Sequence record: NC_047777.1
Length of the DNA stretch: 40,291 nt
Reading direction: 5' to 3' (one strand)
Origin: Escherichia phage ZG49
How positions within the stretch are numbered: position 1 is the first letter of the stretch; each line of letters starts with the position of its first letter. This document shows, one piece after another, positions 1 through 40,291 of this stretch. The notes under the pieces are model-generated. The model was not told the origin of the DNA. It searched no databases and saw only the letters and a list, made by a program, of their open reading frames with translations. Position numbers and translations under genes: made by a program.

Positions 1-401
1 CCTAAGGCTTGCACCGATGGAAGGAGGGTGATATTAATCATAATCCCTCCAATACAGATAGTCACCGACCATAGATACAGGAGGTATGTAGCATATGGCA
101 AAGACCAAAGCTGTACTTAAAGCTCTGGCGACCAATCGAGCTACATACAGGTTTCTTGCTGCTGTTCTACTTGCTGCTGGCGTTACTGCTGGAAGTAAGT
201 GGGTCGGGTGGGTCGAGACTCTCGTATGTTCTCTGGTGTCTCAGTGTAATTAACGCAATCATGGTAACGATTCATGAGCGGAAGACCTAAGGTCAGTACG
301 TGGATAAAGACTCACTCTACTGACCTTAGCTACTGTAGTCAAGGACTTTAGGTAACACCTTAATAGAAGCTCACCTAGGGTCATCCTACTTATTGGTCTA
401 T
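1..401. repeat. Left direct terminal repeat, identical to 39891-40291
   Basis: Bases 1-401 read identically to 39891-40291; window begins and ends exactly on the repeat; T7-like genomes carry direct terminal repeats. Confidence 0.8.
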
Positions 402-689
402 CCTAGTGTCGCCTGACCTACGGTCCTTGACCTACAGTAGCTGCCACCTACGGTCACTCGATGAGTTTTGGACCAAAAGTTTGAGACCACATCTCACAGT
501 TCAAGAACCTCAAGTCTCCCCATAGGCCCTCTTTAAGTCCAGACCAAAGGCCCTACCCCAGTCTATCATAAGGCTGGACCGATGGTCAAGACGTTAGGTC
601 AACGATAGGTCTAGGCTATGGCTGGAGGTCAGGACGATAGGTAGGGACTATGGGTCTGTCTCTGAGTCTCTATCTGTATAACCATAGGT

Positions 690-780
690 CCTACAACCTA
701 GTCCTACAACCTACAGTCCTACAACCTACAGTCCTACAACCTACAGTCCTACAACCTACAGTCCTACAACCTACAGTCTA
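690..780. repeat. Tandem array of about 6 copies of a 15-bp unit (GTCCTACAACCTACA) in the left-end non-coding region
   Basis: Direct reading: a 13-bp partial copy followed by five exact 15-bp copies; no spacers. Confidence 0.8.
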
Positions 781-947
781 ACTAACCTACAGTATCAACC
801 ATAAGACACCAACACCTACGGTCATAGACCCACAGTTAATAGACACAAAGCTATAGACTTAAGGTCTTAAACATGTTAGTCAAAGACTATATCCTATTAC
901 ACCATGGGGCCGACGATAGCTTAATCAATATTATTTAAGATTACCTA

Positions 948-1309: not shown

Positions 1310-1834
1310 ATGAAACTGATAGGCAAAGGCGCGTTCACTAAGTGCTACCTGAAGGATTGCGGAAAGCGTGTACTTCTGGTCTCTTCAGACCCAATCAAGG
1401 AGTGTATGGCGTGGGGATGGTTCCCTGAGTCTTCACTGTTCCCTGAAGTCAAGATGATTGAGGTGGGCACGTATGAGATGGACTACATGCCACCAACACG
1501 AGGTCTCAAGGCGCATTTAGATGACGACCAGTGGCAACTCTATCAGGTGCTGCGAGATTGCTTCTCACGGTCTCCGGTATTCTCTCGACCTGCTGACCTG
1601 TATCACAAGTGGTACGAGATATTCCAAGCTGCACACGACAGGTCTGAGACCGAGACTGTGCGGGAAGGTCTGATGGATGTACTGATGGCGCTGGACGCTT
1701 GCGCTAACTTCGGGTCTGACATTCAGTTTGAGATAAGCCCACGAAATGTACGGGCTGTGAATGGTAAGCTGATACTAGTGGATTGTTTCTTCCTTGTGTC
1801 CAAGCTGCCAGAGGTGAGGGCGTTAAGATGGTAA
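1310..1834 (+). CDS. gp0.7-like serine/threonine protein kinase (kinase domain only, 174 aa)
   Basis: Glycine-rich loop IGKGAFTKCY resembles T7 gp0.7 LGNGHFSAAY; further similarity (VLRDCF, ILVDCFF); RBS AAGGA upstream; first gene after early promoters. Confidence 0.7.
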   Translation: MKLIGKGAFTKCYLKDCGKRVLLVSSDPIKECMAWGWFPESSLFPEVKMIEVGTYEMDYMPPTRGLKAHLDDDQWQLYQVLRDCFSRSPVFSRPADLYHKWYEIFQAAHDRSETETVREGLMDVLMALDACANFGSDIQFEISPRNVRAVNGKLILVDCFFLVSKLPEVRALRW

Positions 1835-2289
1835 CTTATGGTCTCTGCCAGCACCACGTCACCAACGCCCGGCTTATGGTCGAGACCGGGCAGTTAGACC
1901 ACGAGATGACGACCAGTGGCAACTCTATCAGGTGCTGCGAGATTGCTTCTCACGGTCTCCGGTATTCTCTCGACCTGCTGACCTGTATCACAAGTGGTAC
2001 GAGATATTCCAAGCTGCACACGACAGGTCTGAGACCGAGACTGTGCGGGAAGGTCTGATGGATGTACTGATGGCGCTGGACGCTTGCGCTAACTTCGGGT
2101 CTGACATTCAGTTTGAGATAAGCCCACGAAATGTACGGGCTGTGAATGGTAAGCTGATACTAGTGGATTGTTTCTTCCTTGTGTCCAAGCTGCCAGAGGT
2201 GAGGGCGTTAAGATGGTAACTTATGGTCTCTGCCAGCACCACGTCACCAACGCCCGGCTTATGGTCGAGACCGGGCAGTTAGACCACGA
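1520..2289. repeat. Tandem duplication A: two identical 385-bp copies (1520-1904, 1905-2289)
   Basis: Direct reading; ORFs 1310-1834 and 1932-2219 share an identical C-terminal 95 aa; 1783-2058 and 2168-2362 share their N-terminus. Confidence 0.9.
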
Positions 2290-2362
2290 TTGGGCTATGC
2301 GTCTCTTGAAAGTGGTCTACAGGAGACGCAAGCGCATACACGATAGTTTACACACTGAGTGA
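2213..2362 (+). CDS. Small hypothetical protein (49 aa) overlapping kinase 3' end; start uncertain (track ORF begins at a TTG at 2168)
   Basis: ATG at 2213 preceded by GAGGTGAG; intact only in copy 2 of duplication A; copy at 1828 is chimeric. Confidence 0.3.
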   Translation: MVTYGLCQHHVTNARLMVETGQLDHDWAMRLLKVVYRRRKRIHDSLHTE

Positions 2363-2428
2363 TAGACGAGAGGTCATCGACTGATAGGTGGCCTCAAAGA
2401 TTATCACTTAAATTGATAGGAGTTAACT

Positions 2429-2596
2429 ATGAAATTTACAGGAATAGCACTTTACGTAACGATTATTATGGCGTGGCTGACTGCGGTATTCACTGATGGG
2501 AACGCATTACGACTAGGCTGGATGGCAGTGGATATTATCTTCTCTCCGGTAGGGGTCGTGCGGGGCATCTTGATGTGGTTTGGATTGGCGGGATAA
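2429..2596 (+). CDS. Small hydrophobic early protein (55 aa, predicted membrane peptide)
   Basis: ATG at 2429 with AGGAG RBS; hydrophobic sequence MKFTGIALYVTIIMAWLTAVF...; below the 60-aa cutoff of the ORF track. Confidence 0.4.
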   Translation: MKFTGIALYVTIIMAWLTAVFTDGNALRLGWMAVDIIFSPVGVVRGILMWFGLAG

Positions 2597-2599
2597 ACT

Positions 2600-2743
2600 A
2601 TGAGTGTGGGATATTTGGTATGCCTGTCTCCGGTCATCTTTCTGATAGCTTGGGGGATATACGATTGTATTAAACGGAAATCACGATTCATGTGCAACCT
2701 CGCGAACGTCTGGGATATAGCAACTATTGGGAGCAAACTGTAA
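2600..2743 (+). CDS. Small hydrophobic early protein (47 aa)
   Basis: ATG at 2600 directly after previous stop; stop overlaps next start (TAATG). Confidence 0.3.
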   Translation: MSVGYLVCLSPVIFLIAWGIYDCIKRKSRFMCNLANVWDIATIGSKL

Positions 2744-7867: not shown

Positions 7868-8122
7868 ATGTTTAAGAACTTAATGTTCAATCGTTATACC
7901 AGTACATTCCACCTGTCTCACAACCCATTAGCTTGCATTAAGCGCAACGAGAAGCTGGGCTACTTCGGGAAGGCCGTTAAGCTGTCACCTACAGTCTTCG
8001 CTCTGATTACTCCGGGCAAAGCTGAAGAGGCTCGCCAGAAGCGTGCGACCCACGTACCTGTGGTCTACACTAAGTGGCCTCGAGTTCGTCTGTTCGTTGA
8101 GTTCGTGAAGGAGGTGTTCTGA
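7868..8122 (+). CDS. gp1.6-like hypothetical protein (84 aa)
   Basis: RBS AAGGAGG; position between ligase and gp1.7. Confidence 0.5.
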   Translation: MFKNLMFNRYTSTFHLSHNPLACIKRNEKLGYFGKAVKLSPTVFALITPGKAEEARQKRATHVPVVYTKWPRVRLFVEFVKEVF

Positions 8123-8854
8123 TGGGATGTATAGCTTGCTTAGAGAAACCAGAGGTAACTCCTACAGATGACCAACCTTCCACTGAGTCAATCGACGCTG
8201 TCCGCAAGCCGTCCCACTATCAGGTATTTGACGGAGTGGAGTCCATTGAGATTATCGCTCGGTCCATGACTGTCAGCGAGTTCCGTGGGTTCTGCATGGG
8301 TAACGTCCTGAAGTATCGACTCCGAGCTGGTAAGAAGTCCGAGCTGGCTACTATGGAGAAGGACCTGAACAAAGCGGACTTCTATCAGGAGCTGTTCGAC
8401 CTGAGCTGGGCTACTTCGGGAAGGCCGTTAAGCTGTCACCTACAGTCTTCGCTCTGATTACTCCGGGCAAAGCTGAAGAGGCTCGCCAGAAGCGTGCGAC
8501 CCACGTACCTGTGGTCTACACTAAGTGGCCTCGAGTTCGTCTGTTCGTTGAGTTCGTGAAGGAGGTGTTCTGATGGGATGTATAGCTTGCTTAGAGAAAC
8601 CAGAGGTAACTCCTACAGATGACCAACCTTCCACTGAGTCAATCGACGCTGTCCGCAAGCCGTCCCACTATCAGGTATTTGACGGAGTGGAGTCCATTGA
8701 GATTATCGCTCGGTCCATGACTGTCAGCGAGTTCCGTGGGTTCTGCATGGGTAACGTCCTGAAGTATCGACTCCGAGCTGGTAAGAAGTCCGAGCTGGCT
8801 ACTATGGAGAAGGACCTGAACAAAGCGGACTTCTATCAGGAGCTGTTCGACCTG
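7953..8854. repeat. Tandem duplication B: two identical 451-bp copies (7953-8403, 8404-8854)
   Basis: Direct reading; ORFs 8122-8457 and 8573-8881 share their first 94 aa. Confidence 0.9.
8122..8457 (+). pseudogene. Chimeric gp1.7 copy created by duplication B (native C-terminus replaced by out-of-frame gp1.6 sequence)
   Basis: Identical to 8573-8881 until ...QELFDL, then diverges at the duplication junction. Confidence 0.6.
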
Positions 8855-9976: not shown

Positions 9977-10426
9977 ATGAGTAGAGGACATCAAGTAGGT
10001 GCTTATCGCTCTGGACTCGAAGCAAAGAACCAAGAGTGGCTTGAGAAGAATGGCGTAAAAGCTGAATACGAAGCATATAAAATAGGCTACGTAGTACCAT
10101 CCAGCGACCACTTCTACACACCAGATTTTATCCTTCCTAACGGTATCATCGTGGAGACCAAAGGTCTCTTCGATAGTGATGACCGTAAGAAGCACCTTCT
10201 GGTACGAGAACAGCACCCTGAGTTAGACATTCGGTTCGTGTTCTCAAGTTCACGCTCCAAGTTATACAAGGGGTCTCCGACCACGTATGGCGCATGGTGC
10301 GAAAAGAACGGCTTTAAGTTTGCCGACAAGTTTATCCCGGTTGAGTGGCTGAGAGAGGTGACTGTACGTCTACCTTCAGGTATTCTCATCCCCAAGAAGA
10401 AAGGAGTTAAGGATATTCGCACCTAA
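9977..10426 (+). CDS. Endonuclease I (gp3-like Holliday junction resolvase, 149 aa from ATG 9977)
   Basis: Strong similarity to T7 gp3 (GAYRSGLE, YTPDF, PNGI.VETKGL..SDDRKKHLL.REQHPELDIR.VFSSSR.KLYKGSPT); track ORF starts earlier at 9920. Confidence 0.85.
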   Translation: MSRGHQVGAYRSGLEAKNQEWLEKNGVKAEYEAYKIGYVVPSSDHFYTPDFILPNGIIVETKGLFDSDDRKKHLLVREQHPELDIRFVFSSSRSKLYKGSPTTYGAWCEKNGFKFADKFIPVEWLREVTVRLPSGILIPKKKGVKDIRT

Positions 10427-11009
10427 AGCGAGACCCTTAAGTTTATGGCTGAAAAATACTCAGTAAGTGAGACAACCATAAGTCGAATCAGGAACAACAA
10501 GAGGTGGAAATAATAATGGGAAGTAAAGTACAATTCATGCCACGCAAGTCAACTGACGCTATCTTCGTTCACTGTTCGGCTACCAAGCCAGAGATGGACA
10601 TCGGGGTAGAGACCATCCGTATGGTGTTCTCAAGTTCACGCTCCAAGTTATACAAGGGGTCTCCGACCACGTATGGCGCATGGTGCGAAAAGAACGGCTT
10701 TAAGTTTGCCGACAAGTTTATCCCGGTTGAGTGGCTGAGAGAGGTGACTGTACGTCTACCTTCAGGTATTCTCATCCCCAAGAAGAAAGGAGTTAAGGAT
10801 ATTCGCACCTAAAGCGAGACCCTTAAGTTTATGGCTGAAAAATACTCAGTAAGTGAGACAACCATAAGTCGAATCAGGAACAACAAGAGGTGGAAATAAT
10901 AATGGGAAGTAAAGTACAATTCATGCCACGCAAGTCAACTGACGCTATCTTCGTTCACTGTTCGGCTACCAAGCCAGAGATGGACATCGGGGTAGAGACC
11001 ATCCGTATG
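10238..11009. repeat. Tandem duplication C: two identical 386-bp copies (10238-10623, 10624-11009)
   Basis: Direct reading; ORF 10504-10812 has the lysozyme N-terminus fused to the endonuclease I C-terminus. Confidence 0.9.
10504..10812 (+). pseudogene. Chimeric ORF: lysozyme N-terminal 40 aa fused to endonuclease I C-terminal 62 aa
   Basis: N-terminus identical to 10890-11360 and C-terminus identical to 9920-10426; switch at the duplication junction. Confidence 0.6.
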
Positions 11010-33576: not shown

Positions 33577-35637
33577 ATGTCCACGATTACACAATTCCCT
33601 TCAGGAAACACTCAGTACAGGATTGAGTTCGACTACCTAGCCAGAACGTTTGTTGTTGTTACGCTGGTGAATAGCTCTAACCCTACCCTGAACCGTGTAC
33701 TGGAAGTTGGTCGAGATTACCGATTCCTTAACCCAACGATGATTGAGATGTTGGTTGACCAATCAGGTTTCGACATCGTTCGTATTCACCGTCAGACTGG
33801 AACTGACTTAGTGGTAGACTTCAGGAATGGCTCAGTGTTGACAGCTAGTGACCTGACCAATTCAGAGCTTCAGGCTATCCATATTGCAGAAGAAGGTCGA
33901 GACCAAACGGTTGACTTAGCGAAGGAATATGCCGATGCTGCTGGTAGCTCTGCTGGCAACGCTAAGGATAGCGAGGACGAAGCACGCCGAATCGCTGCGA
34001 GTATCAGGGAAGCTGGTCTAATTGGCTATATTACCCGTCGCTCCTTCGAGAAAGGCTACAACGTTACAACATGGAGCGAGGTCCTGCTATGGGAAGAGGA
34101 TGGTGATTATTACCGCTGGGATGGTACGCTTCCAAAGAACGTTCCTGCTGGTTCAACTCCTGAAACTTCCGGTGGGATTGGATTAGGTGCGTGGGTTAGT
34201 GTTGGTGATGCTGCTTTAAGAAGTCAGATTTCAAACCCGGAAGGGGCAATACTCTACCCGGAATTGCAGATGGCAAGATGGCGTGATGAGGGTGATGTTC
34301 GAGGCTGGGGTGCTAAAGGGGATGGTGTAACAGATAGTACGGAGAATATAGCTGCTTCACTAAATTCTCAAAAAGCTGTCGTAGCATCAGAAGGTGTATT
34401 CTCTAGTTCTGGTATTAATAGTAATTACTGTAACTTAGACGGTAGAGGCAGTGGTGTACTAAGTCACCGTTCAAGTACAGGTAACTACTTAGTATTTAAC
34501 AATCTACGCTCAGGTCGCTTAAGTAATATTACGGTAGAAAGTAATAAGGCGACCGATACCACTCAAGGGCAGCAGGTATCTCTTGCTGGTGGCAGTGATG
34601 TTACTATAAGTGATGTTAATTTCTCAAACGTTAAGGGCGCTGGTTTCAGTTTAATCACATACCCTAATGATGCACCCTCTGATGGGCTTATGATTAAAGG
34701 CATTCGAGGTAGCTACTCCGGCTATGCTACTAATAAGGCGGCTGGATGCATACTTGCTGATTCCTCAGTTAACTCCCTCATAAATAACGTCATTGCTAAG
34801 AACTACCCTCAGTTCGGGGCTGTAGAACTGAAAGGTACAGCCAGTTATAACATAGTCAGCAATGTTATAGGGGCAGACTGCCAGCATGTAACTTACAACG
34901 GTACAGAAGGGTCAATAGCTCCCTCTAACAACCTTATCAATGGGGTAGTGGCTAATAATCCTAAATATGCAGCGGTTGTTGCAGGCAAAGGTAGTACCAA
35001 CTTAATCTCCGATGTGCTTGTAGATTTCTCAACCTCTGATGCTAGGCAGGCTCATGGTGTTACAGTAGAAGGTTCTGATAACGTCATAAATAATGTGCTT
35101 ATGTCAGGGTGTGATGGTACTAACTCTTTAGGGCAAGCTCAGACTGCTACAATTGCGCGCTTTATAGATACGGCTAATAACAACTATGCGTCTGTATTTC
35201 CTAGCTACAGTGCTACAGGTGTTATTACTTTCGAATCAGGTTCTACCCGTAACTTCGTAGAGGTAAAGCATCCGGGAAGGAGAAACGACCTTCTCAGTGC
35301 TACTGGTACTATTGAAGGTAAAGTTACTATTGACGGCACTAGTAATAGCAACGTAGTGCACGCTCCTGCATTAGGACAGTACATAGGCAGTATGTCCGGT
35401 AGGTTCGAATGGCGGATTAAGTCCATGTCACTTCCGTCAGGCGTTCTTACCTCGGCTGATAAGTACAGAATGCTTGGGGATGGTGCTGTGTCATTAGCTG
35501 TAGGTGGGGGTACTTCTTCTCAAGTTCGCCTATTTACTTCTGATGGTACTTATCGGACAGTATCACTCACCAACGGTAACGTGCGTCTTCCTACCAGTAG
35601 CACAGGTTATTTGCAGTTAGGTTCTAGCTCCCTCTAA
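33577..35637 (+). CDS. Tailspike (gp17-like), N-terminal 686-aa fragment truncated by tandem duplication D
   Basis: N-terminal 150 aa resemble the T7 gp17 adaptor domain (EFDYLARTFVVVTL, DYRF, VDFRNGSVL.ASDL, IAEEGRD); then a beta-helix-like region (WGAKGDGVTD); reading frame breaks at the duplication junction at 35625. Confidence 0.8.
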   Translation: MSTITQFPSGNTQYRIEFDYLARTFVVVTLVNSSNPTLNRVLEVGRDYRFLNPTMIEMLVDQSGFDIVRIHRQTGTDLVVDFRNGSVLTASDLTNSELQAIHIAEEGRDQTVDLAKEYADAAGSSAGNAKDSEDEARRIAASIREAGLIGYITRRSFEKGYNVTTWSEVLLWEEDGDYYRWDGTLPKNVPAGSTPETSGGIGLGAWVSVGDAALRSQISNPEGAILYPELQMARWRDEGDVRGWGAKGDGVTDSTENIAASLNSQKAVVASEGVFSSSGINSNYCNLDGRGSGVLSHRSSTGNYLVFNNLRSGRLSNITVESNKATDTTQGQQVSLAGGSDVTISDVNFSNVKGAGFSLITYPNDAPSDGLMIKGIRGSYSGYATNKAAGCILADSSVNSLINNVIAKNYPQFGAVELKGTASYNIVSNVIGADCQHVTYNGTEGSIAPSNNLINGVVANNPKYAAVVAGKGSTNLISDVLVDFSTSDARQAHGVTVEGSDNVINNVLMSGCDGTNSLGQAQTATIARFIDTANNNYASVFPSYSATGVITFESGSTRNFVEVKHPGRRNDLLSATGTIEGKVTIDGTSNSNVVHAPALGQYIGSMSGRFEWRIKSMSLPSGVLTSADKYRMLGDGAVSLAVGGGTSSQVRLFTSDGTYRTVSLTNGNVRLPTSSTGYLQLGSSSL

Positions 35638-36333
35638 CAACCTTATCAATGGGGTAGTGGCTAATAATCCTAAATATGCAGCGGTTGTTGCAGGCAAAGG
35701 TAGTACCAACTTAATCTCCGATGTGCTTGTAGATTTCTCAACCTCTGATGCTAGGCAGGCTCATGGTGTTACAGTAGAAGGTTCTGATAACGTCATAAAT
35801 AATGTGCTTATGTCAGGGTGTGATGGTACTAACTCTTTAGGGCAAGCTCAGACTGCTACAATTGCGCGCTTTATAGATACGGCTAATAACAACTATGCGT
35901 CTGTATTTCCTAGCTACAGTGCTACAGGTGTTATTACTTTCGAATCAGGTTCTACCCGTAACTTCGTAGAGGTAAAGCATCCGGGAAGGAGAAACGACCT
36001 TCTCAGTGCTACTGGTACTATTGAAGGTAAAGTTACTATTGACGGCACTAGTAATAGCAACGTAGTGCACGCTCCTGCATTAGGACAGTACATAGGCAGT
36101 ATGTCCGGTAGGTTCGAATGGCGGATTAAGTCCATGTCACTTCCGTCAGGCGTTCTTACCTCGGCTGATAAGTACAGAATGCTTGGGGATGGTGCTGTGT
36201 CATTAGCTGTAGGTGGGGGTACTTCTTCTCAAGTTCGCCTATTTACTTCTGATGGTACTTATCGGACAGTATCACTCACCAACGGTAACGTGCGTCTTCC
36301 TACCAGTAGCACAGGTTATTTGCAGTTAGGTTC
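34916..36333. repeat. Tandem duplication D: two identical 709-bp copies (34916-35624, 35625-36333) inside the tailspike gene
   Basis: Direct reading; ORFs 33577-35637 and 35657-36817 share about 230 identical residues. Confidence 0.9.
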
Positions 36334-36817
36334 CAATGCAATGACCCCAGATAGTACTAATACATACGCATTAGGTTCCGCAAGTCGAGCATGGTCTGGC
36401 GGTTTTACTCAATCAGCATTCACTGTTGTCTCAGATGCTAGGGATAAAACAGAGCCTCTTAATATCTCAGATGCTTTACTGGATGCTTGGTCTGAAGTTG
36501 ACTTTGTGCAGTTTCAGTACTTGGACCGAATTGAGGAGAAGGGTGCAGACTCAGCTAGATGGCACTTCGGCATCATCGCTCAGCGAGCTACGGAGGCCTT
36601 CGAACGTCACGGTATAGATGCACATCGCTATGGCTTCCTGTGCTTCGACAGTTGGGATGATGTGTACGAGGAAGATGCCAATGGCTCTCGTAAACTGATT
36701 ACACCAGCAGGTTCCCGCTATGGTATTCGTTACGAGGAAGTACTGATATTAGAGGCTGCGTTGATGCGGCGTACTATTAAGCGTATGCAGGAAGCATTAG
36801 CTGTTATGTCTAAGTGA
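35657..36817 (+). CDS. Tailspike C-terminal fragment (386 aa) including an intramolecular-chaperone-like domain
   Basis: C-terminus GSASRAWSGGFTQSAFTVVSDARDKTEP... resembles peptidase S74-type chaperone domains of phage tailspikes; begins at an internal Met created by the duplication. Confidence 0.65.
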   Translation: MANNPKYAAVVAGKGSTNLISDVLVDFSTSDARQAHGVTVEGSDNVINNVLMSGCDGTNSLGQAQTATIARFIDTANNNYASVFPSYSATGVITFESGSTRNFVEVKHPGRRNDLLSATGTIEGKVTIDGTSNSNVVHAPALGQYIGSMSGRFEWRIKSMSLPSGVLTSADKYRMLGDGAVSLAVGGGTSSQVRLFTSDGTYRTVSLTNGNVRLPTSSTGYLQLGSNAMTPDSTNTYALGSASRAWSGGFTQSAFTVVSDARDKTEPLNISDALLDAWSEVDFVQFQYLDRIEEKGADSARWHFGIIAQRATEAFERHGIDAHRYGFLCFDSWDDVYEEDANGSRKLITPAGSRYGIRYEEVLILEAALMRRTIKRMQEALAVMSK

Positions 36818-37927: not shown

Positions 37928-39687
37928 GTAAAGATTTAGTGGCGCGTCGGGCGCTAGTGACTACCCGTATGAAGGCAGACTTCGTGTTCTTCCTGTTCGT
38001 CCTGTGGAAAGCCTTGTCACTCCCAGTCCCGACTCGCTGTCAGATTGACATGGCGAAGAAACTATCGGCTGGGGACAACAGGCGTTTCATCCTACAGGCG
38101 TTCCGTGGTATCGGGAAGTCCTTCATTACGTGTGCCTTCGTGGTCTGGAAGCTATGGAACAACCCAGACTTGAAGTTCATGATTGTGTCGGCCTCAAAGG
38201 AACGAGCCGATGCTAACTCCATCTTCATCAAGCGAATCATCGACCTCATGCCTCAGCTTAAGGAACTCAAACCTAAGCAGGGGCAGCGAGATGCGGTTAT
38301 CAGCTTCGACGTTGGACCAGCCAAGCCAGACCACTCACCTTCGGTTAAGTCCGTTGGTATCACTGGTCAGTTGACTGGTAGTCGTGCTGACATCCTGATT
38401 GCCGATGACGTGGAGGTTCCGAACAACTCAGCGACTCAGGCTGCACGAGACCGTCTGTCAGAGCTTGTGAAAGAGTTCGACGCTATCCTGAAGCCGGGAG
38501 GTACAATCATCTATCTGGGTACTCCTCAGAACGAGATGACCTTGTATCGTGAGCTGGAAGGCCGTGGATACACCACTACCATCTGGCCTGCTCGTTATCC
38601 ACGCGACAGGAAGGACTGGCAGTCTTACGGCGACCGTCTGGCACCGATGCTTCAGGCAGAGCTTGAAGAGGACCCTGAGTCCTTCTACTGGCGTCCGACC
38701 GATGAAGTACGATTCGATGATACGGACCTGAAGGAACGTGAGCTGTCCTATGGTAAAGCTGGCTTCGCTCTACAGTTCATGCTTAACCCTAACCTGAGTG
38801 ATGCTGAGAAGCACCCTCTGAAGCTCCGTGACCTTATCGTAGCCGACTTGGACCCAGCGTCTAGCCCAATGGTATACCAATGGCTTCCTAACCCTCAGAA
38901 CAAGCGTGAGGACGTTCCTAACGTTGGACTCATGGGTGACTCATACCACACGTATCAGACTGTAGGTTCTGCCTTCAGTTCGTACACCCAGAAGATTCTG
39001 GTCATTGACCCTAGTGGTCGTGGTAAGGATGAAACTGGTTATGCGGTACTGTACCAGCTAAACGGCTACATCTTCGCTATGGAAGTTGGCGGTATGCGAG
39101 GTGGCTATGAAGACTCTACGCTGGAAGCCTTGGCTAAGATTGGTCGTAAGTGGAAGGTCAACGAATACGTCATTGAGGGTAACTTCGGTGATGGTATGTA
39201 CCTTGAGCTATTCAAGCCTGTAGCTTCCCGTATTCATCCTGCTGCTGTAACTGAAGTGAAGAGTAAGGGTCAGAAGGAACTCCGCATCTGTGACGTTCTG
39301 GAGCCTATCATGGGGTCTCACCGACTTATCGTCAACGCTTCTGCTATCGTCCAAGACTACCAGACAGCCTCTGATAAGGATGGTGTGCGTAACCCTATCT
39401 ACTCTCTCTTCTATCAGATGACCCGTATCTCTCGTGAACGTGGAGCACTGGCACACGATGACCGACTTGATGCGCTGGCTATCGGTGTACAGTTCTTCGT
39501 TGAGTCTATGGCTAAGGATGCCAACAAAGGCGAACGTGAAGTCACTGAGGAGTGGCTGGAGGAACAGATGGAGAACCCACGGAAAGGCTTTGAGTCCATC
39601 CACACTGAGTTCTGGGACAATGGGGTCCGGGTAACTCACGATACTGACGACGAGCTGGGGCTAGGGTCCTACGTTACGTTCCACTAG
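37924..39687 (+). CDS. Terminase large subunit (gp19-like), apparent TTG start
   Basis: Near-colinear similarity to T7 gp19 ([91 protein letters not shown]); N-terminus aligns from the TTG at 37924, 7 nt after GGAGG. Confidence 0.93.
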
Positions 39688-39783
39688 CTGAATGAATAAC
39701 TATAGGCGAAAACTGAATTAATAAGCAGTTAGTAACCTATAGTTACTACCAGTCTAACCTACTGTTTTACAAGGAGTTTGGAC

Positions 39784-39802
39784 TTAACTATCACTATAGG
39801 GA
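39784..39802 (+). promoter_or_regulatory. Phage RNAP promoter TTAACTATCACTATAGGGA (phiOR-like)
   Basis: Consensus match about 90 bp before the right terminal repeat. Confidence 0.7.
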
Positions 39803-39890
39803 AGACCCCCGGTTACTTATAGTATTACTGTAGTGAATATACATATGCAGACTTTATGCAAGACCTTAGGAGGCAGACTCCGAGTTCTTA

Positions 39891-40291
39891 CCTAAGGCTT
39901 GCACCGATGGAAGGAGGGTGATATTAATCATAATCCCTCCAATACAGATAGTCACCGACCATAGATACAGGAGGTATGTAGCATATGGCAAAGACCAAAG
40001 CTGTACTTAAAGCTCTGGCGACCAATCGAGCTACATACAGGTTTCTTGCTGCTGTTCTACTTGCTGCTGGCGTTACTGCTGGAAGTAAGTGGGTCGGGTG
40101 GGTCGAGACTCTCGTATGTTCTCTGGTGTCTCAGTGTAATTAACGCAATCATGGTAACGATTCATGAGCGGAAGACCTAAGGTCAGTACGTGGATAAAGA
40201 CTCACTCTACTGACCTTAGCTACTGTAGTCAAGGACTTTAGGTAACACCTTAATAGAAGCTCACCTAGGGTCATCCTACTTATTGGTCTAT
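39891..40291. repeat. Right direct terminal repeat, identical to 1-401
   Basis: Direct comparison of both ends. Confidence 0.8.

What the first reader, a model, noticed from the sequence alone, without database searches (positions are those of the whole stretch)
1..401. Long terminal repeat with a perfect 12-bp inverted repeat and a small ORF
The 401-bp terminal repeat is longer than I recall for T7 (about 160 bp). It contains a perfect inverted repeat CTAAGGTCAGTA (287-298) / TACTGACCTTAG (318-329) with a 19-nt loop, and a 51-aa ORF with one hydrophobic segment (95-250, duplicated at 39985-40140) downstream of the phiOR-like promoter in the right copy. The region just inside the left repeat is rich in CCTA(C/A/T)(A/G)G-type motifs. 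These are candidates for packaging/terminase recognition; alternatively the 401-bp identity could be a circularisation overlap.
Basis: partly seen in the sequence, partly recalled or inferred. Interest (0 to 1): 0.45.

Follow-up and report, generated by a model that had tools for sequence, protein, structure and literature searches.

The report
Assembly overlap, not a terminal repeat
The identical 401 bases at the two ends of this K1F-type (T7-like) phage genome are almost certainly an un-merged assembly overlap: the real terminal repeat of about 180 bases lies at 492-671, and the overlap holds only the phage's ordinary last gene (19.5) and a conserved hairpin.

Summary
The sequence facts are real. 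Positions 1-401 equal 39891-40291 exactly. The 12-bp inverted repeat at 287-298/318-329 is perfect. The ORF at 95-253 exists, though it is 52 aa, not 51.

The 401-bp identity is not the physical terminal repeat. The window is a Kayfunavirus. K1F, EcoDS1, GA2A, SH3 and others start at the homologue of window 492 (TCTCACAGTTCAAG) and end at the homologue of about 670-675. SH3's ends were mapped by run-off sequencing. That block of about 180 bp occurs once in the window.

Joining 40291 to 402 gives sequence collinear with single-copy DNA in every relative. The window also carries four internal perfect tandem duplications of 385-709 bp. None is a multiple of 3, all are single-copy in relatives, and one splits the tailspike gene. 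The end identity is a fifth duplication of the same kind.

What lies in 1-401 is the ordinary T7-type right-end region: gene 19.5 downstream of phiOR, then a hairpin 34 nt after its stop. The hairpin is supported by covariation and matches in position a T7/T3 hairpin. CCTAAAG-like motifs follow. Interest is low.

The parts
1..401 (.). Left copy of the exact 401-bp end redundancy. In biological terms it is part of the unique right-end region of the genome, running from 92 nt downstream of the phiOR start to 90 nt before the true terminal repeat.
   Evidence: Exact identity. It maps to one single-copy stretch in pO2 and is collinear with the right ends of K1F, EcoDS1, GA2A and SH3.
39891..40291 (.). 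Right copy of the same 401 bp. This copy is in its natural context, downstream of gene 19 and phiOR.
39782..39804 (+). phiOR-type phage RNA polymerase promoter (ACTTAACTATCACTATAGGGAAG). It lies outside the duplicated block.
   Evidence: Homologous to the phiOR annotated in EcoDS1 at 38500-38522. Sequence read.
95..253 (+). Gene 19.5, a 52-aa small hydrophobic protein, with a second copy at 39985-40143. Its ribosome-binding site AGGAGGT is at 79-85.
   Evidence: Same length and position as the EcoDS1 CDS annotated gp19.5. BLASTP to T7 gp19.5 gives 2e-5. phrog_2193 matches at 1.7e-24. The T7/T3 alignment shares an R-x-T-x-R-F-L motif (TYRFL in the window and T7, TWRFL in T3) and a CS motif.
287..329 (.). 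Conserved hairpin or cruciform element, with a second copy at 40177-40219. It has a 12-bp perfect outer stem, a 1-nt bulge and an inner stem GTG/CAC (300-302/313-315). It starts 34 nt after the gene 19.5 stop, and its centre is 184 bp left of the true terminal repeat.
   Evidence: The arms are conserved while the loop comes in at least 3 alleles. There are 4 pairs with two-sided changes and 96% of cells paired. L046 has two compensatory changes in the outer stem. T7 and T3 have a positional counterpart.
328..442 (.). Second, imperfect inverted repeat (328-353 / 416-442) built from CCTAAAG-like motifs in opposite orientation. It straddles the 401|402 boundary of the redundancy.
   Evidence: (I2 and I11). 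The region is conserved in relatives.
459..491 (.). Nearly invariant block immediately left of the cleavage site (CGATGAGTTTTGGACCAAAAGTTTGAGACCACA). It contains the palindrome TTTTGG-A-CCAAAA at 466-478.
   Evidence: Nearly invariant in the 18 Kayfunavirus sequences aligned, although that set was collected with a 20-nt pattern covering 480-499, so the last 12 nt are identical by selection. Coordinates.
492..671 (.). Predicted true direct terminal repeat, about 180 bp (right boundary 670-675). It is present once in the window and begins TCTCACAGTTCAAG.
   Evidence: Records of K1F, EcoDS1, GA2A, SH3, YZ1, NS1 and HC13 start here. Right ends of K1F, EcoDS1, SH3 and several IMG/VR contigs stop at the homologue of 670-675. 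EcoDS1 annotates a terminal repeat at 1-178 and at 39075-39252. The block is single-copy in the window. SH3 ends were determined by run-off sequencing (PMC4925675).
670..677 (+). CTATCTGT, the counterpart of the 'concatemeric junction' element annotated in EcoDS1 at 177-184. It resembles the T7 ATCTGTT-type RNA polymerase pause signal.
   Evidence: The pause function is taken from the literature (PMC3276506, citing Zhang and Studier 2004).
701..793 (+). Five tandem copies of GTCCTACAACCTACA plus degenerate copies. This is the short-repeat array to the right of the true terminal repeat, analogous to the T7 SRL array.
   Evidence: (D1).
34916..36333 (.). Perfect 709-bp tandem duplication that splits the tailspike gene 17. 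It is one of four internal duplications of the same class as the end redundancy. The others are 1519-2288 (385 bp), 7953-8854 (451 bp) and 10238-11009 (386 bp).
   Evidence: In the 12 closest listed records (18 cover at least 80% of the query) the 3241-bp query maps to 2532 bp, which is 3241 minus 709. All four are single-copy in pO2. No phage record carries the junction.

Best explanation
The window is a computer-assembled Kayfunavirus (K1F-like, T7-like) genome that was opened about 490 bp upstream of the true left end. Overlapping pieces were not merged. As a result the last 401 bases repeat the first 401, and four internal stretches are written twice in tandem.

The virion DNA most likely starts at window 492 (TCTCACAGTTCAAG...). 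It most likely ends with a second copy of about 492-671, which is the real terminal repeat of about 180 bp. The assembly collapsed that repeat to one copy.

The duplicated 401 bp is ordinary unique right-end sequence with three components:
- gene 19.5, transcribed from phiOR;
- a conserved hairpin 34 nt after its stop;
- the first CCTAAAG-like motifs that flank the terminal repeat.

Shown here: identity, collinearity, conserved ends in relatives, single-copy status, broken genes, and hairpin covariation.

Inferred:
- The duplications come from un-trimmed contig overlaps.
- The hairpin acts at the DNA level in concatemer processing. This follows the hairpin intermediate reported for T7 by Chung, Nardone and Hinkle (1990), which lets the single repeat at a concatemer junction be duplicated. 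Confidence in this last step alone is about 0.4-0.5.
For: Ends of relatives:
- Seven relatives' records begin exactly at the homologue of window 492, and several annotate repeats of 178-197 bp there.
- K1F and EcoDS1 have exact 178-bp repeats. PP328844 has 179 bp starting TCTCACAG.
- SH3, SH4 and SH5 ends were determined by run-off sequencing at 183-190 bp, and K1F is reported at 179 bp.
- Right ends of relatives stop at the homologue of 670-675, and window 492-680 is single-copy.

The 401 bp is single-copy elsewhere:
- Window ...40291 followed by 402... is collinear with the unique right ends of relatives.
- Both 401-bp copies map to one stretch of pO2.
- The 401 bp contains a complete gene, 19.5.
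- Its boundaries cut through conserved sequence and through a second inverted repeat.

Other duplications in the same assembly:
- Four further perfect tandem duplications have periods of 385, 451, 386 and 709, none divisible by 3.
- Removing one copy of the 709-bp unit restores a single 860-codon stop-to-stop frame for the tailspike.
- Relatives have single copies.

Hairpin:
- It is the only perfect 12-bp inverted repeat in the window, and 5 of 5000 shuffles of the 401 bp give one.
- Covariation supports it.
- T7 (39568-39608) and T3 have a hairpin at the same position, with 4 compensatory pairs between them.
- Hairpins lie 13-45 nt after the gene 19.5 stop in diverse lineages.
Against: - No reads are available, so the physical termini of this particular phage are inferred from relatives that are 90-98% identical in this region.
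- 401 bp is not a typical assembler k-mer overlap, and the mechanism producing the duplications is not known.
- The hairpin arms are invariant within most Kayfunavirus sequences. Covariation therefore rests on a few divergent sequences (8 variants).
- The mapped position of the T7 hairpin intermediate is my recollection. The 1990 paper is not in the held library.
Confidence: 0.92

Rival explanations
1. The 401 bp is a genuine direct terminal repeat. In this phage the terminase cuts at window 1 and 401, giving a longer repeat that includes gene 19.5 and the hairpin.
For: The identity at both ends is exact. The repeat contains a significant, conserved inverted repeat and CCTA-type motifs. Terminal-repeat length varies among T7-like phages, from 160 to 242 bp.
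Against: - The canonical end sequence TCTCACAG..., the pre-cleavage block 459-491 and the junction element CTATCTGT are all intact and conserved at 492-677, and are present once.
- No relative starts or ends at the homologues of 1 or 401.
- Both boundaries fall inside conserved contiguous sequence.
- The repeat would be coding, unlike the terminal repeats of T7-like phages, which are described as non-coding (PMC5923468).
- The same assembly has four other perfect duplications that cannot be real.
Confidence: 0.03
2. The phage genome really carries a 401-bp tandem duplication of the 19.5-hairpin region just upstream of its right terminal repeat, and the circularised assembly happened to be opened between the two copies.
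For: On circularisation the two copies are directly adjacent, so they form a tandem duplication. This non-coding and non-essential region tolerates insertions in relatives, some of which carry extra small ORFs between 19.5 and the hairpin.
Against: - No relative has it. Of 18 distinct Kayfunavirus right ends plus pO2, all are single-copy.
- Being opened exactly at the duplication junction would be a coincidence.
- The sister duplications in the same assembly disrupt the tailspike gene and others, so they are artefacts.
Confidence: 0.04
3. For the hairpin alone: it acts in RNA, as a 3' stabilising stem-loop, processing site or terminator for the phiOR-19.5 transcript. It is not a DNA hairpin in concatemer processing.
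For: It lies 13-45 nt after the stop of the last gene in many lineages. It is on the transcribed strand. One inner-stem pair is G-U in 3 variants.
Against: - No T-run follows it and no terminator-like site was found.
- There is no Rfam match.
- The outer stem shows only Watson-Crick pairs, which would fold on both strands.
- T7 RNA polymerase is reported to continue to a pause at the concatemer junction.
- From my recollection of Dunn and Studier, not checked here, none of the mapped T7 RNase III sites lies after gene 19.5.
Confidence: 0.35

Closest known systems
Physical genome ends of Kayfunavirus phages K1F, EcoDS1, SH3 and GA2A (direct terminal repeats of 178-197 bp)
   Same: Window 492-671 is 90-98% identical to their terminal repeats. 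It starts with the same TCTCACAGTTCAAG and ends in the same GAGTCTC(T) followed by ATCTGT. It is preceded by the same phiOR, gene 19.5, hairpin and motif region.
   Different: In the window the repeat is written once and internally. The record ends are instead an arbitrary 401-bp redundancy that those genomes lack.
Bacteriophage T7 right end and concatemer junction (phiOR, gene 19.5, inverted repeat at 39568-39608, short repeats, 160-bp terminal repeat, pause site)
   Same: The order and spacing are the same.
- The hairpin starts 30 nt (T7) or 34 nt (window) after the 19.5 stop.
- Its centre lies 190 bp (T7) or 184 bp (window) left of the repeat.
- Heptamer CCTAAAG-type arrays lie on both sides.
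- An ATCTGT-type element lies at the right edge of the repeat.

   Different: There is no sequence similarity between the hairpins. T7 has a 19-nt imperfect stem with a 3-nt loop, whereas the window has a 12-bp perfect stem plus an inner stem and a larger loop. gp19.5 is only about 31-33% identical.
Terminal overlaps of circularised phage or viral contigs, which completeness tools routinely flag as 'DTR'
   Same: The identity is exact, the start point is arbitrary, and the join reproduces single-copy sequence of relatives.
   Different: The length (401) is not a typical k-mer. The assembly also has four internal un-merged overlaps, which suggests that overlapping contigs were concatenated rather than a simple circular graph walk.

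Membership tests
T7-like (Studiervirinae) direct terminal repeat, meaning the physical ends of virion DNA | The repeat begins with the conserved left-end sequence TCTCAC/TAG... | tested here: not met
   The 401-bp block begins CCTAAGGCTTGC. TCTCACAGTTCAAG occurs once, at 492, which is where relatives' records start.
T7-like (Studiervirinae) direct terminal repeat, meaning the physical ends of virion DNA | The repeat is non-coding and about 160-240 bp long in this subfamily | tested here: not met
   The 401 bp contains the whole of gene 19.5. Reported lengths are 160-242 bp.
T7-like (Studiervirinae) direct terminal repeat, meaning the physical ends of virion DNA | The right edge of the repeat abuts the concatemer-junction pause element, and the repeat is flanked by short-repeat arrays | tested here: not met
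   Position 401|402 lies in conserved unique sequence. The element CTATCTGT and the 15-bp array follow 671, not 401. Window 492-671 meets this feature.
T7-like (Studiervirinae) direct terminal repeat, meaning the physical ends of virion DNA | Virion DNA molecules start and end at the repeat boundaries, shown by read pile-up, run-off sequencing and doubled coverage | not testable with these tools
   No reads or DNA are available. This is inferred only from relatives with mapped ends.
Assembly or circularisation overlap (artefactual redundancy) | The redundancy is exact, and removing one copy yields sequence collinear with single-copy DNA of close relatives | tested here: met
Assembly or circularisation overlap (artefactual redundancy) | There is independent evidence of un-merged overlaps in the same assembly | tested here: met
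   Four perfect tandem duplications have periods not divisible by 3. One splits gene 17, and all are single-copy in relatives.
Assembly or circularisation overlap (artefactual redundancy) | Read coverage over the redundant block equals the genome average, and no reads span two tandem copies | not testable with these tools
   No reads are available.
T7 gene 19.5 family | A small (about 49-52 aa) hydrophobic protein encoded between phiOR and the right terminal repeat, with sequence similarity to T7 gp19.5 | tested here: met
   Position. BLASTP 2e-5 to T7 gp19.5. phrog_2193 at 1.7e-24. Conserved R-x-T-x-R-F-L motif. A transmembrane segment is reported for the AP5 homologue.
T7 concatemer-processing hairpin (Chung, Nardone and Hinkle 1990) | An inverted repeat in the unique right-end DNA about 190 bp left of the terminal repeat | tested here: met
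   The window hairpin centre at 308 is 184 bp left of 492. The T7 inverted repeat centre at 39588 is 190 bp left of 39778. That this T7 repeat is the mapped hairpin site is my recollection, because the paper is not held.
T7 concatemer-processing hairpin (Chung, Nardone and Hinkle 1990) | Sequence homology to the T7/T3 element | tested here: not met
   The stem sequences are unrelated. T7 and T3 have AGGGAT...ATCCCT, whereas the window has CTAAGGTCAGTA...TACTGACCTTAG. The window element is a positional analogue only.
T7 concatemer-processing hairpin (Chung, Nardone and Hinkle 1990) | Hairpin-ended DNA intermediates form in infected cells, and the element is needed for duplication of the repeat | not testable with these tools
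   This requires infection experiments.
Intrinsic (rho-independent) or T7 class I terminator | A GC-rich stem followed by a T/U run | tested here: not met
   No terminator-like site was found in 1-1400. The stem is followed by CTACTGTAGTC.

The most novel reading that the evidence does not exclude
The hairpin just downstream of gene 19.5 may be a structure-selected cis element shared across T7-like phages.
- It lies 13-45 nt after the stop and 184-211 bp left of the terminal repeat in the four lineages measured (window, T7, T3, L046).
- Its sequence is lineage-specific.
- Compensatory changes separate T7 from T3 and occur within the K1F group.

If so, it would be the DNA fold-back site that lets the single repeat at a concatemer junction be duplicated. 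That would give comparative support, and a set of natural stem variants, for a packaging step in T7-like phages that is still described as poorly understood.

A separate reading, a genuine 401-bp terminal repeat, is not strictly excluded without reads, but I put it at about 0.03.
Probability: 0.35. Interest if true: 0.4.

Novelty: not a real feature. Interest (0 to 1): 0.12.

Why it matters
The main value is for curation.
- The record should not be annotated with a 401-bp terminal repeat.
- It should be re-opened at 492, with a repeat of about 180 bp added at the right end.
- The four internal duplications should be collapsed. Gene 17 (the tailspike) is otherwise reported as two fragments, and the genome length is overstated by about 2.2 kb (about 38.1 kb expected).

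The case also shows that tools which flag exact terminal identity as a 'DTR' can mislabel assembly overlaps in phages that do have real, but different, terminal repeats.

The only biological point of some interest is the conserved, covarying hairpin after gene 19.5. It could serve as a handle for testing the old T7 model of terminal-repeat duplication.

Tried and rejected
- Source record: I looked for it, or any record with the same ends or duplication junctions, in the phage collection. None was found, and the closest genome is pO2 at about 96.7%.
- Known RNA family in 1-1300: no Rfam match at E <= 1.
- Terminator reading of the hairpin: no terminator-like site.
- Pfam for the 52-aa ORF: no family. 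PHROGs gave only a family of unknown function.
- T7 hairpin coordinates: I tried to retrieve Chung, Nardone and Hinkle (1990) and reviews giving the mapped position. The paper is not held, and the papers found cite it without coordinates.
- PP328844: its match offset (489) suggested that this record might share the window's start point. It actually starts at TCTCACAG with a 179-bp repeat and has its own odd extra repeat copies.
- Real internal duplications: I considered that they might be genuine. This was rejected because their periods are not multiples of 3, the tailspike frame is broken, and relatives are single-copy.

Full report
**Observation**

The first 401 bases and the last 401 bases of the window are identical without a mismatch, and 401 is the longest such match. 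The inverted repeat CTAAGGTCAGTA (287-298) / TACTGACCTTAG (318-329) is perfect with a 19-nt loop (I4). Only 5 of 5000 shuffles of the 401 bp contain a perfect 12-bp inverted repeat with a loop of 3-40. The two copies of this one are the only such repeats in the whole 40-kb window.

A strong ribosome-binding site, AGGAGGT, lies at 79-85. CCTAHRG motifs are three-fold over-represented in the window (84 against 25.4 +/- 5.4), and 15 of them lie in 1-830.

**What the genome is**

Megablast places the window in Kayfunavirus, the K1F-like T7-like podophages. The closest genome is Escherichia phage pO2, at about 96.7% identity. No record in the collection is the window itself.

**Where the real ends are**

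The decisive result comes from a search with window 480-700. The records of K1F, EcoDS1, GA2A, SH3, YZ1, NS1 and HC13 all begin at the base homologous to window 492, TCTCACAGTTCAAG.
- EcoDS1 annotates 1-178 and 39075-39252 as 'terminal repeat' and 177-184 as 'concatemeric junction'.
- GA2A and SH3 annotate terminal repeats of 197 and 184 bp.
- K1F and EcoDS1 have exact 178-bp end repeats by direct comparison. PP328844 has 179 bp.
- The SH3, SH4 and SH5 ends were determined experimentally by run-off sequencing on phage DNA, at 183-190 bp. K1F is reported at 179 bp (PMC4925675).
- The right ends of these genomes and of several IMG/VR contigs stop at the homologue of window 670-675.

In the window this block (492-680) occurs once. 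It is followed by CTATCTGT (670-677), which matches the EcoDS1 junction element. A 15-bp tandem array then follows at 701-793.

**What the 401 bp is**

If the window is joined as ...40291 then 402..., the result is collinear, base for base, with the unique right-end sequence of K1F, EcoDS1, GA2A, SH3 and 14 further distinct relatives. Against pO2, window 37969-40291 and window 1-793 map to overlapping coordinates, so both 401-bp copies fall on one single-copy stretch.

The two boundaries of the 401 bp lie within conserved contiguous sequence. The right one cuts through a second inverted repeat, 328-353/416-442. The 401 bp also contains a complete gene.

**Independent evidence that the assembly carries un-merged overlaps**

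A self-comparison shows four more perfect tandem duplications:

| Unit / copy | Period (bp) |
|---|---|
| 1519-1903 / 1904-2288 | 385 |
| 7953-8403 / 8404-8854 | 451 |
| 10238-10623 / 10624-11009 | 386 |
| 34916-35624 / 35625-36333 | 709 |

None of the periods is a multiple of 3. The 709-bp unit splits the tailspike gene into ORFs of 686 and 386 aa. Deleting one copy restores a single frame of 860 codons. In the 12 closest listed records the 3241-bp query maps to 2532 bp, which is exactly 3241 minus 709. All four units are single-copy in pO2, and no phage record holds the duplication junction.

When the window is circularised, the end redundancy is simply a fifth perfect tandem duplication of similar size. 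The simplest inference is that overlapping contigs were concatenated without trimming. After removing the redundancies and adding a second copy of the true repeat, the expected mature genome is about 38.1 kb.

**Anatomy of the region** (natural order, window coordinates)

| Feature | Coordinates |
|---|---|
| Gene 19 (large terminase) | ends 39687 |
| phiOR promoter | 39782-39804 |
| Gene 19.5 | 39985-40143 (= 95-253) |
| Hairpin | 40177-40219 (= 287-329) |
| Motif-rich spacer with a second inverted repeat | to about 458 |
| Nearly invariant block CGATGAGTTTTGGACCAAAAGTTTGAGACCACA | 459-491 |
| True terminal repeat | 492 to about 671 |
| Junction element | 670-677 |
| 15-bp array | 701-793 |

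Host-type promoters and the early genes follow.

The ORF is gene 19.5. It has the same length and place as the EcoDS1 CDS annotated gp19.5. BLASTP to T7 gp19.5 gives 2e-5, and phrog_2193 matches at 1.7e-24. The alignment shows conserved R-x-T-x-R-F-L and CS motifs. The AP5 homologue is predicted to have a transmembrane segment. Its function is unknown.

**The hairpin**

Among 18 distinct Kayfunavirus right ends the two arms are essentially invariant. The loop comes in at least three alleles. Some relatives have extra small ORFs inserted exactly at the left edge of the hairpin.

A more divergent relative, L046, has TTAAGGTCTGTA/TACAGACCTTAA, which is two compensatory changes in the outer stem, at the same 34 nt after the stop. 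On eight variants, 96% of cells pair, and four pairs change on both sides. The covariation score is 0.181 against 0.093 in shuffles (0 of 500), and slid controls collapse. The sample is small and the structure was derived from one member, so this is supportive rather than conclusive.

T7 has an imperfect 19-nt inverted repeat at 39568-39608. It starts 30 nt after the 19.5 stop, and its centre is 190 bp left of the right repeat. T3 has the homologous one. Read directly from the sequences, the two differ by four two-sided compensatory changes while keeping the same mismatches.

A scan of 43 distinct loci shows hairpins 13-45 nt after the 19.5 stop in several further lineages, with unrelated sequences. 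No T-run follows the hairpin, no terminator-like site is found, and no Rfam family matches.

**Mechanism**

Established knowledge, cited:
- T7-type concatemers share one repeat per junction.
- The repeat must be duplicated during packaging.
- A hairpin-ended intermediate has been reported.

My recollection, which I could not verify because the paper is not held, is that the T7 hairpin intermediate maps about 190 bp left of the repeat, at the inverted repeat found here. On that basis I take the window hairpin to be the positional analogue of that element. It would act as a DNA fold-back site, and the CCTAAAG-like motifs and the 459-491 block would form part of the terminase recognition and cleavage context. 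An RNA-level role for the hairpin remains a serious alternative.

**Verdict**

The 'long terminal repeat' is not a real biological feature of the phage. What the overlap contains is the ordinary, already known right-end architecture of T7-like phages.

Noticed in passing
window 1519-2288, 7953-8854, 10238-11009, 34916-36333: Four perfect tandem duplications with periods of 385, 451, 386 and 709 bp, none a multiple of 3. All are single-copy in relatives. They create spurious partial ORFs and inflate the genome by 1931 bp.
   Followed up: yes
window 33577-36817: The tailspike gene 17 is written as two ORFs (686 and 386 aa) because of the 709-bp duplication. Its distal part matches genes annotated as K5 lyase or tail spike in unrelated coliphages (Vectrevirus and 73-76-kb phages), which suggests a K5-capsule-specific tailspike acquired by module exchange.
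   Followed up: partly
L004 (K1F), L011, L012, L015, L020, L021, aligned to window 278-282: Several relatives carry one of at least two different small extra ORFs (with AGGAGG and ATG) inserted between gene 19.5 and the hairpin, ending exactly at the left edge of the hairpin (AAGACCTAAGG). The window, EcoDS1 and SH3 lack them.
   Followed up: no
window 328-353 / 416-442: A second, 26/27-nt imperfect inverted repeat (24 matched positions, one bulge, 62-nt spacer) lies immediately right of the hairpin. It is made of CCTAAAG-like motifs in opposite orientation and is conserved in most relatives. T7 also has further inverted repeats in the equivalent spacer.
   Followed up: partly
window 466-478: The palindrome TTTTGG-A-CCAAAA sits 14-26 bp left of the predicted cleavage site at 491|492, inside a block that is nearly invariant across Kayfunavirus. 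T7 and T3 have ACCA(T/C)AAAAATCTGA at the same place.
   Followed up: no
hairpin loops: window 299-317; L034/L035, L046, L092: The loop alleles share a GGATAAA core and an inner stem that covaries (GTG/CAC, GTGG/CCAC, GTAGG/CCTAC). A similar loop, GGATAAAGACTC, appears in L092, whose gp19.5 is closer to that of T7 and whose outer stem is different.
   Followed up: partly
L070 (PP328844.1) 1-679 and 40586-41264: This GenBank Kayfunavirus record contains four copies of the 179-bp terminal repeat (at 1, 501, 40586 and 41086) and other duplicated blocks near both ends. This is probably another assembly or finishing problem in a public record.
   Followed up: no
window 1310-2700: The first early gene (174 aa, 1310-1834) and its surroundings have almost no match in the closest genome, pO2, which has an Ocr gene in this region. 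The early region therefore appears to be mosaic. The 174-aa protein was not characterised.
   Followed up: no
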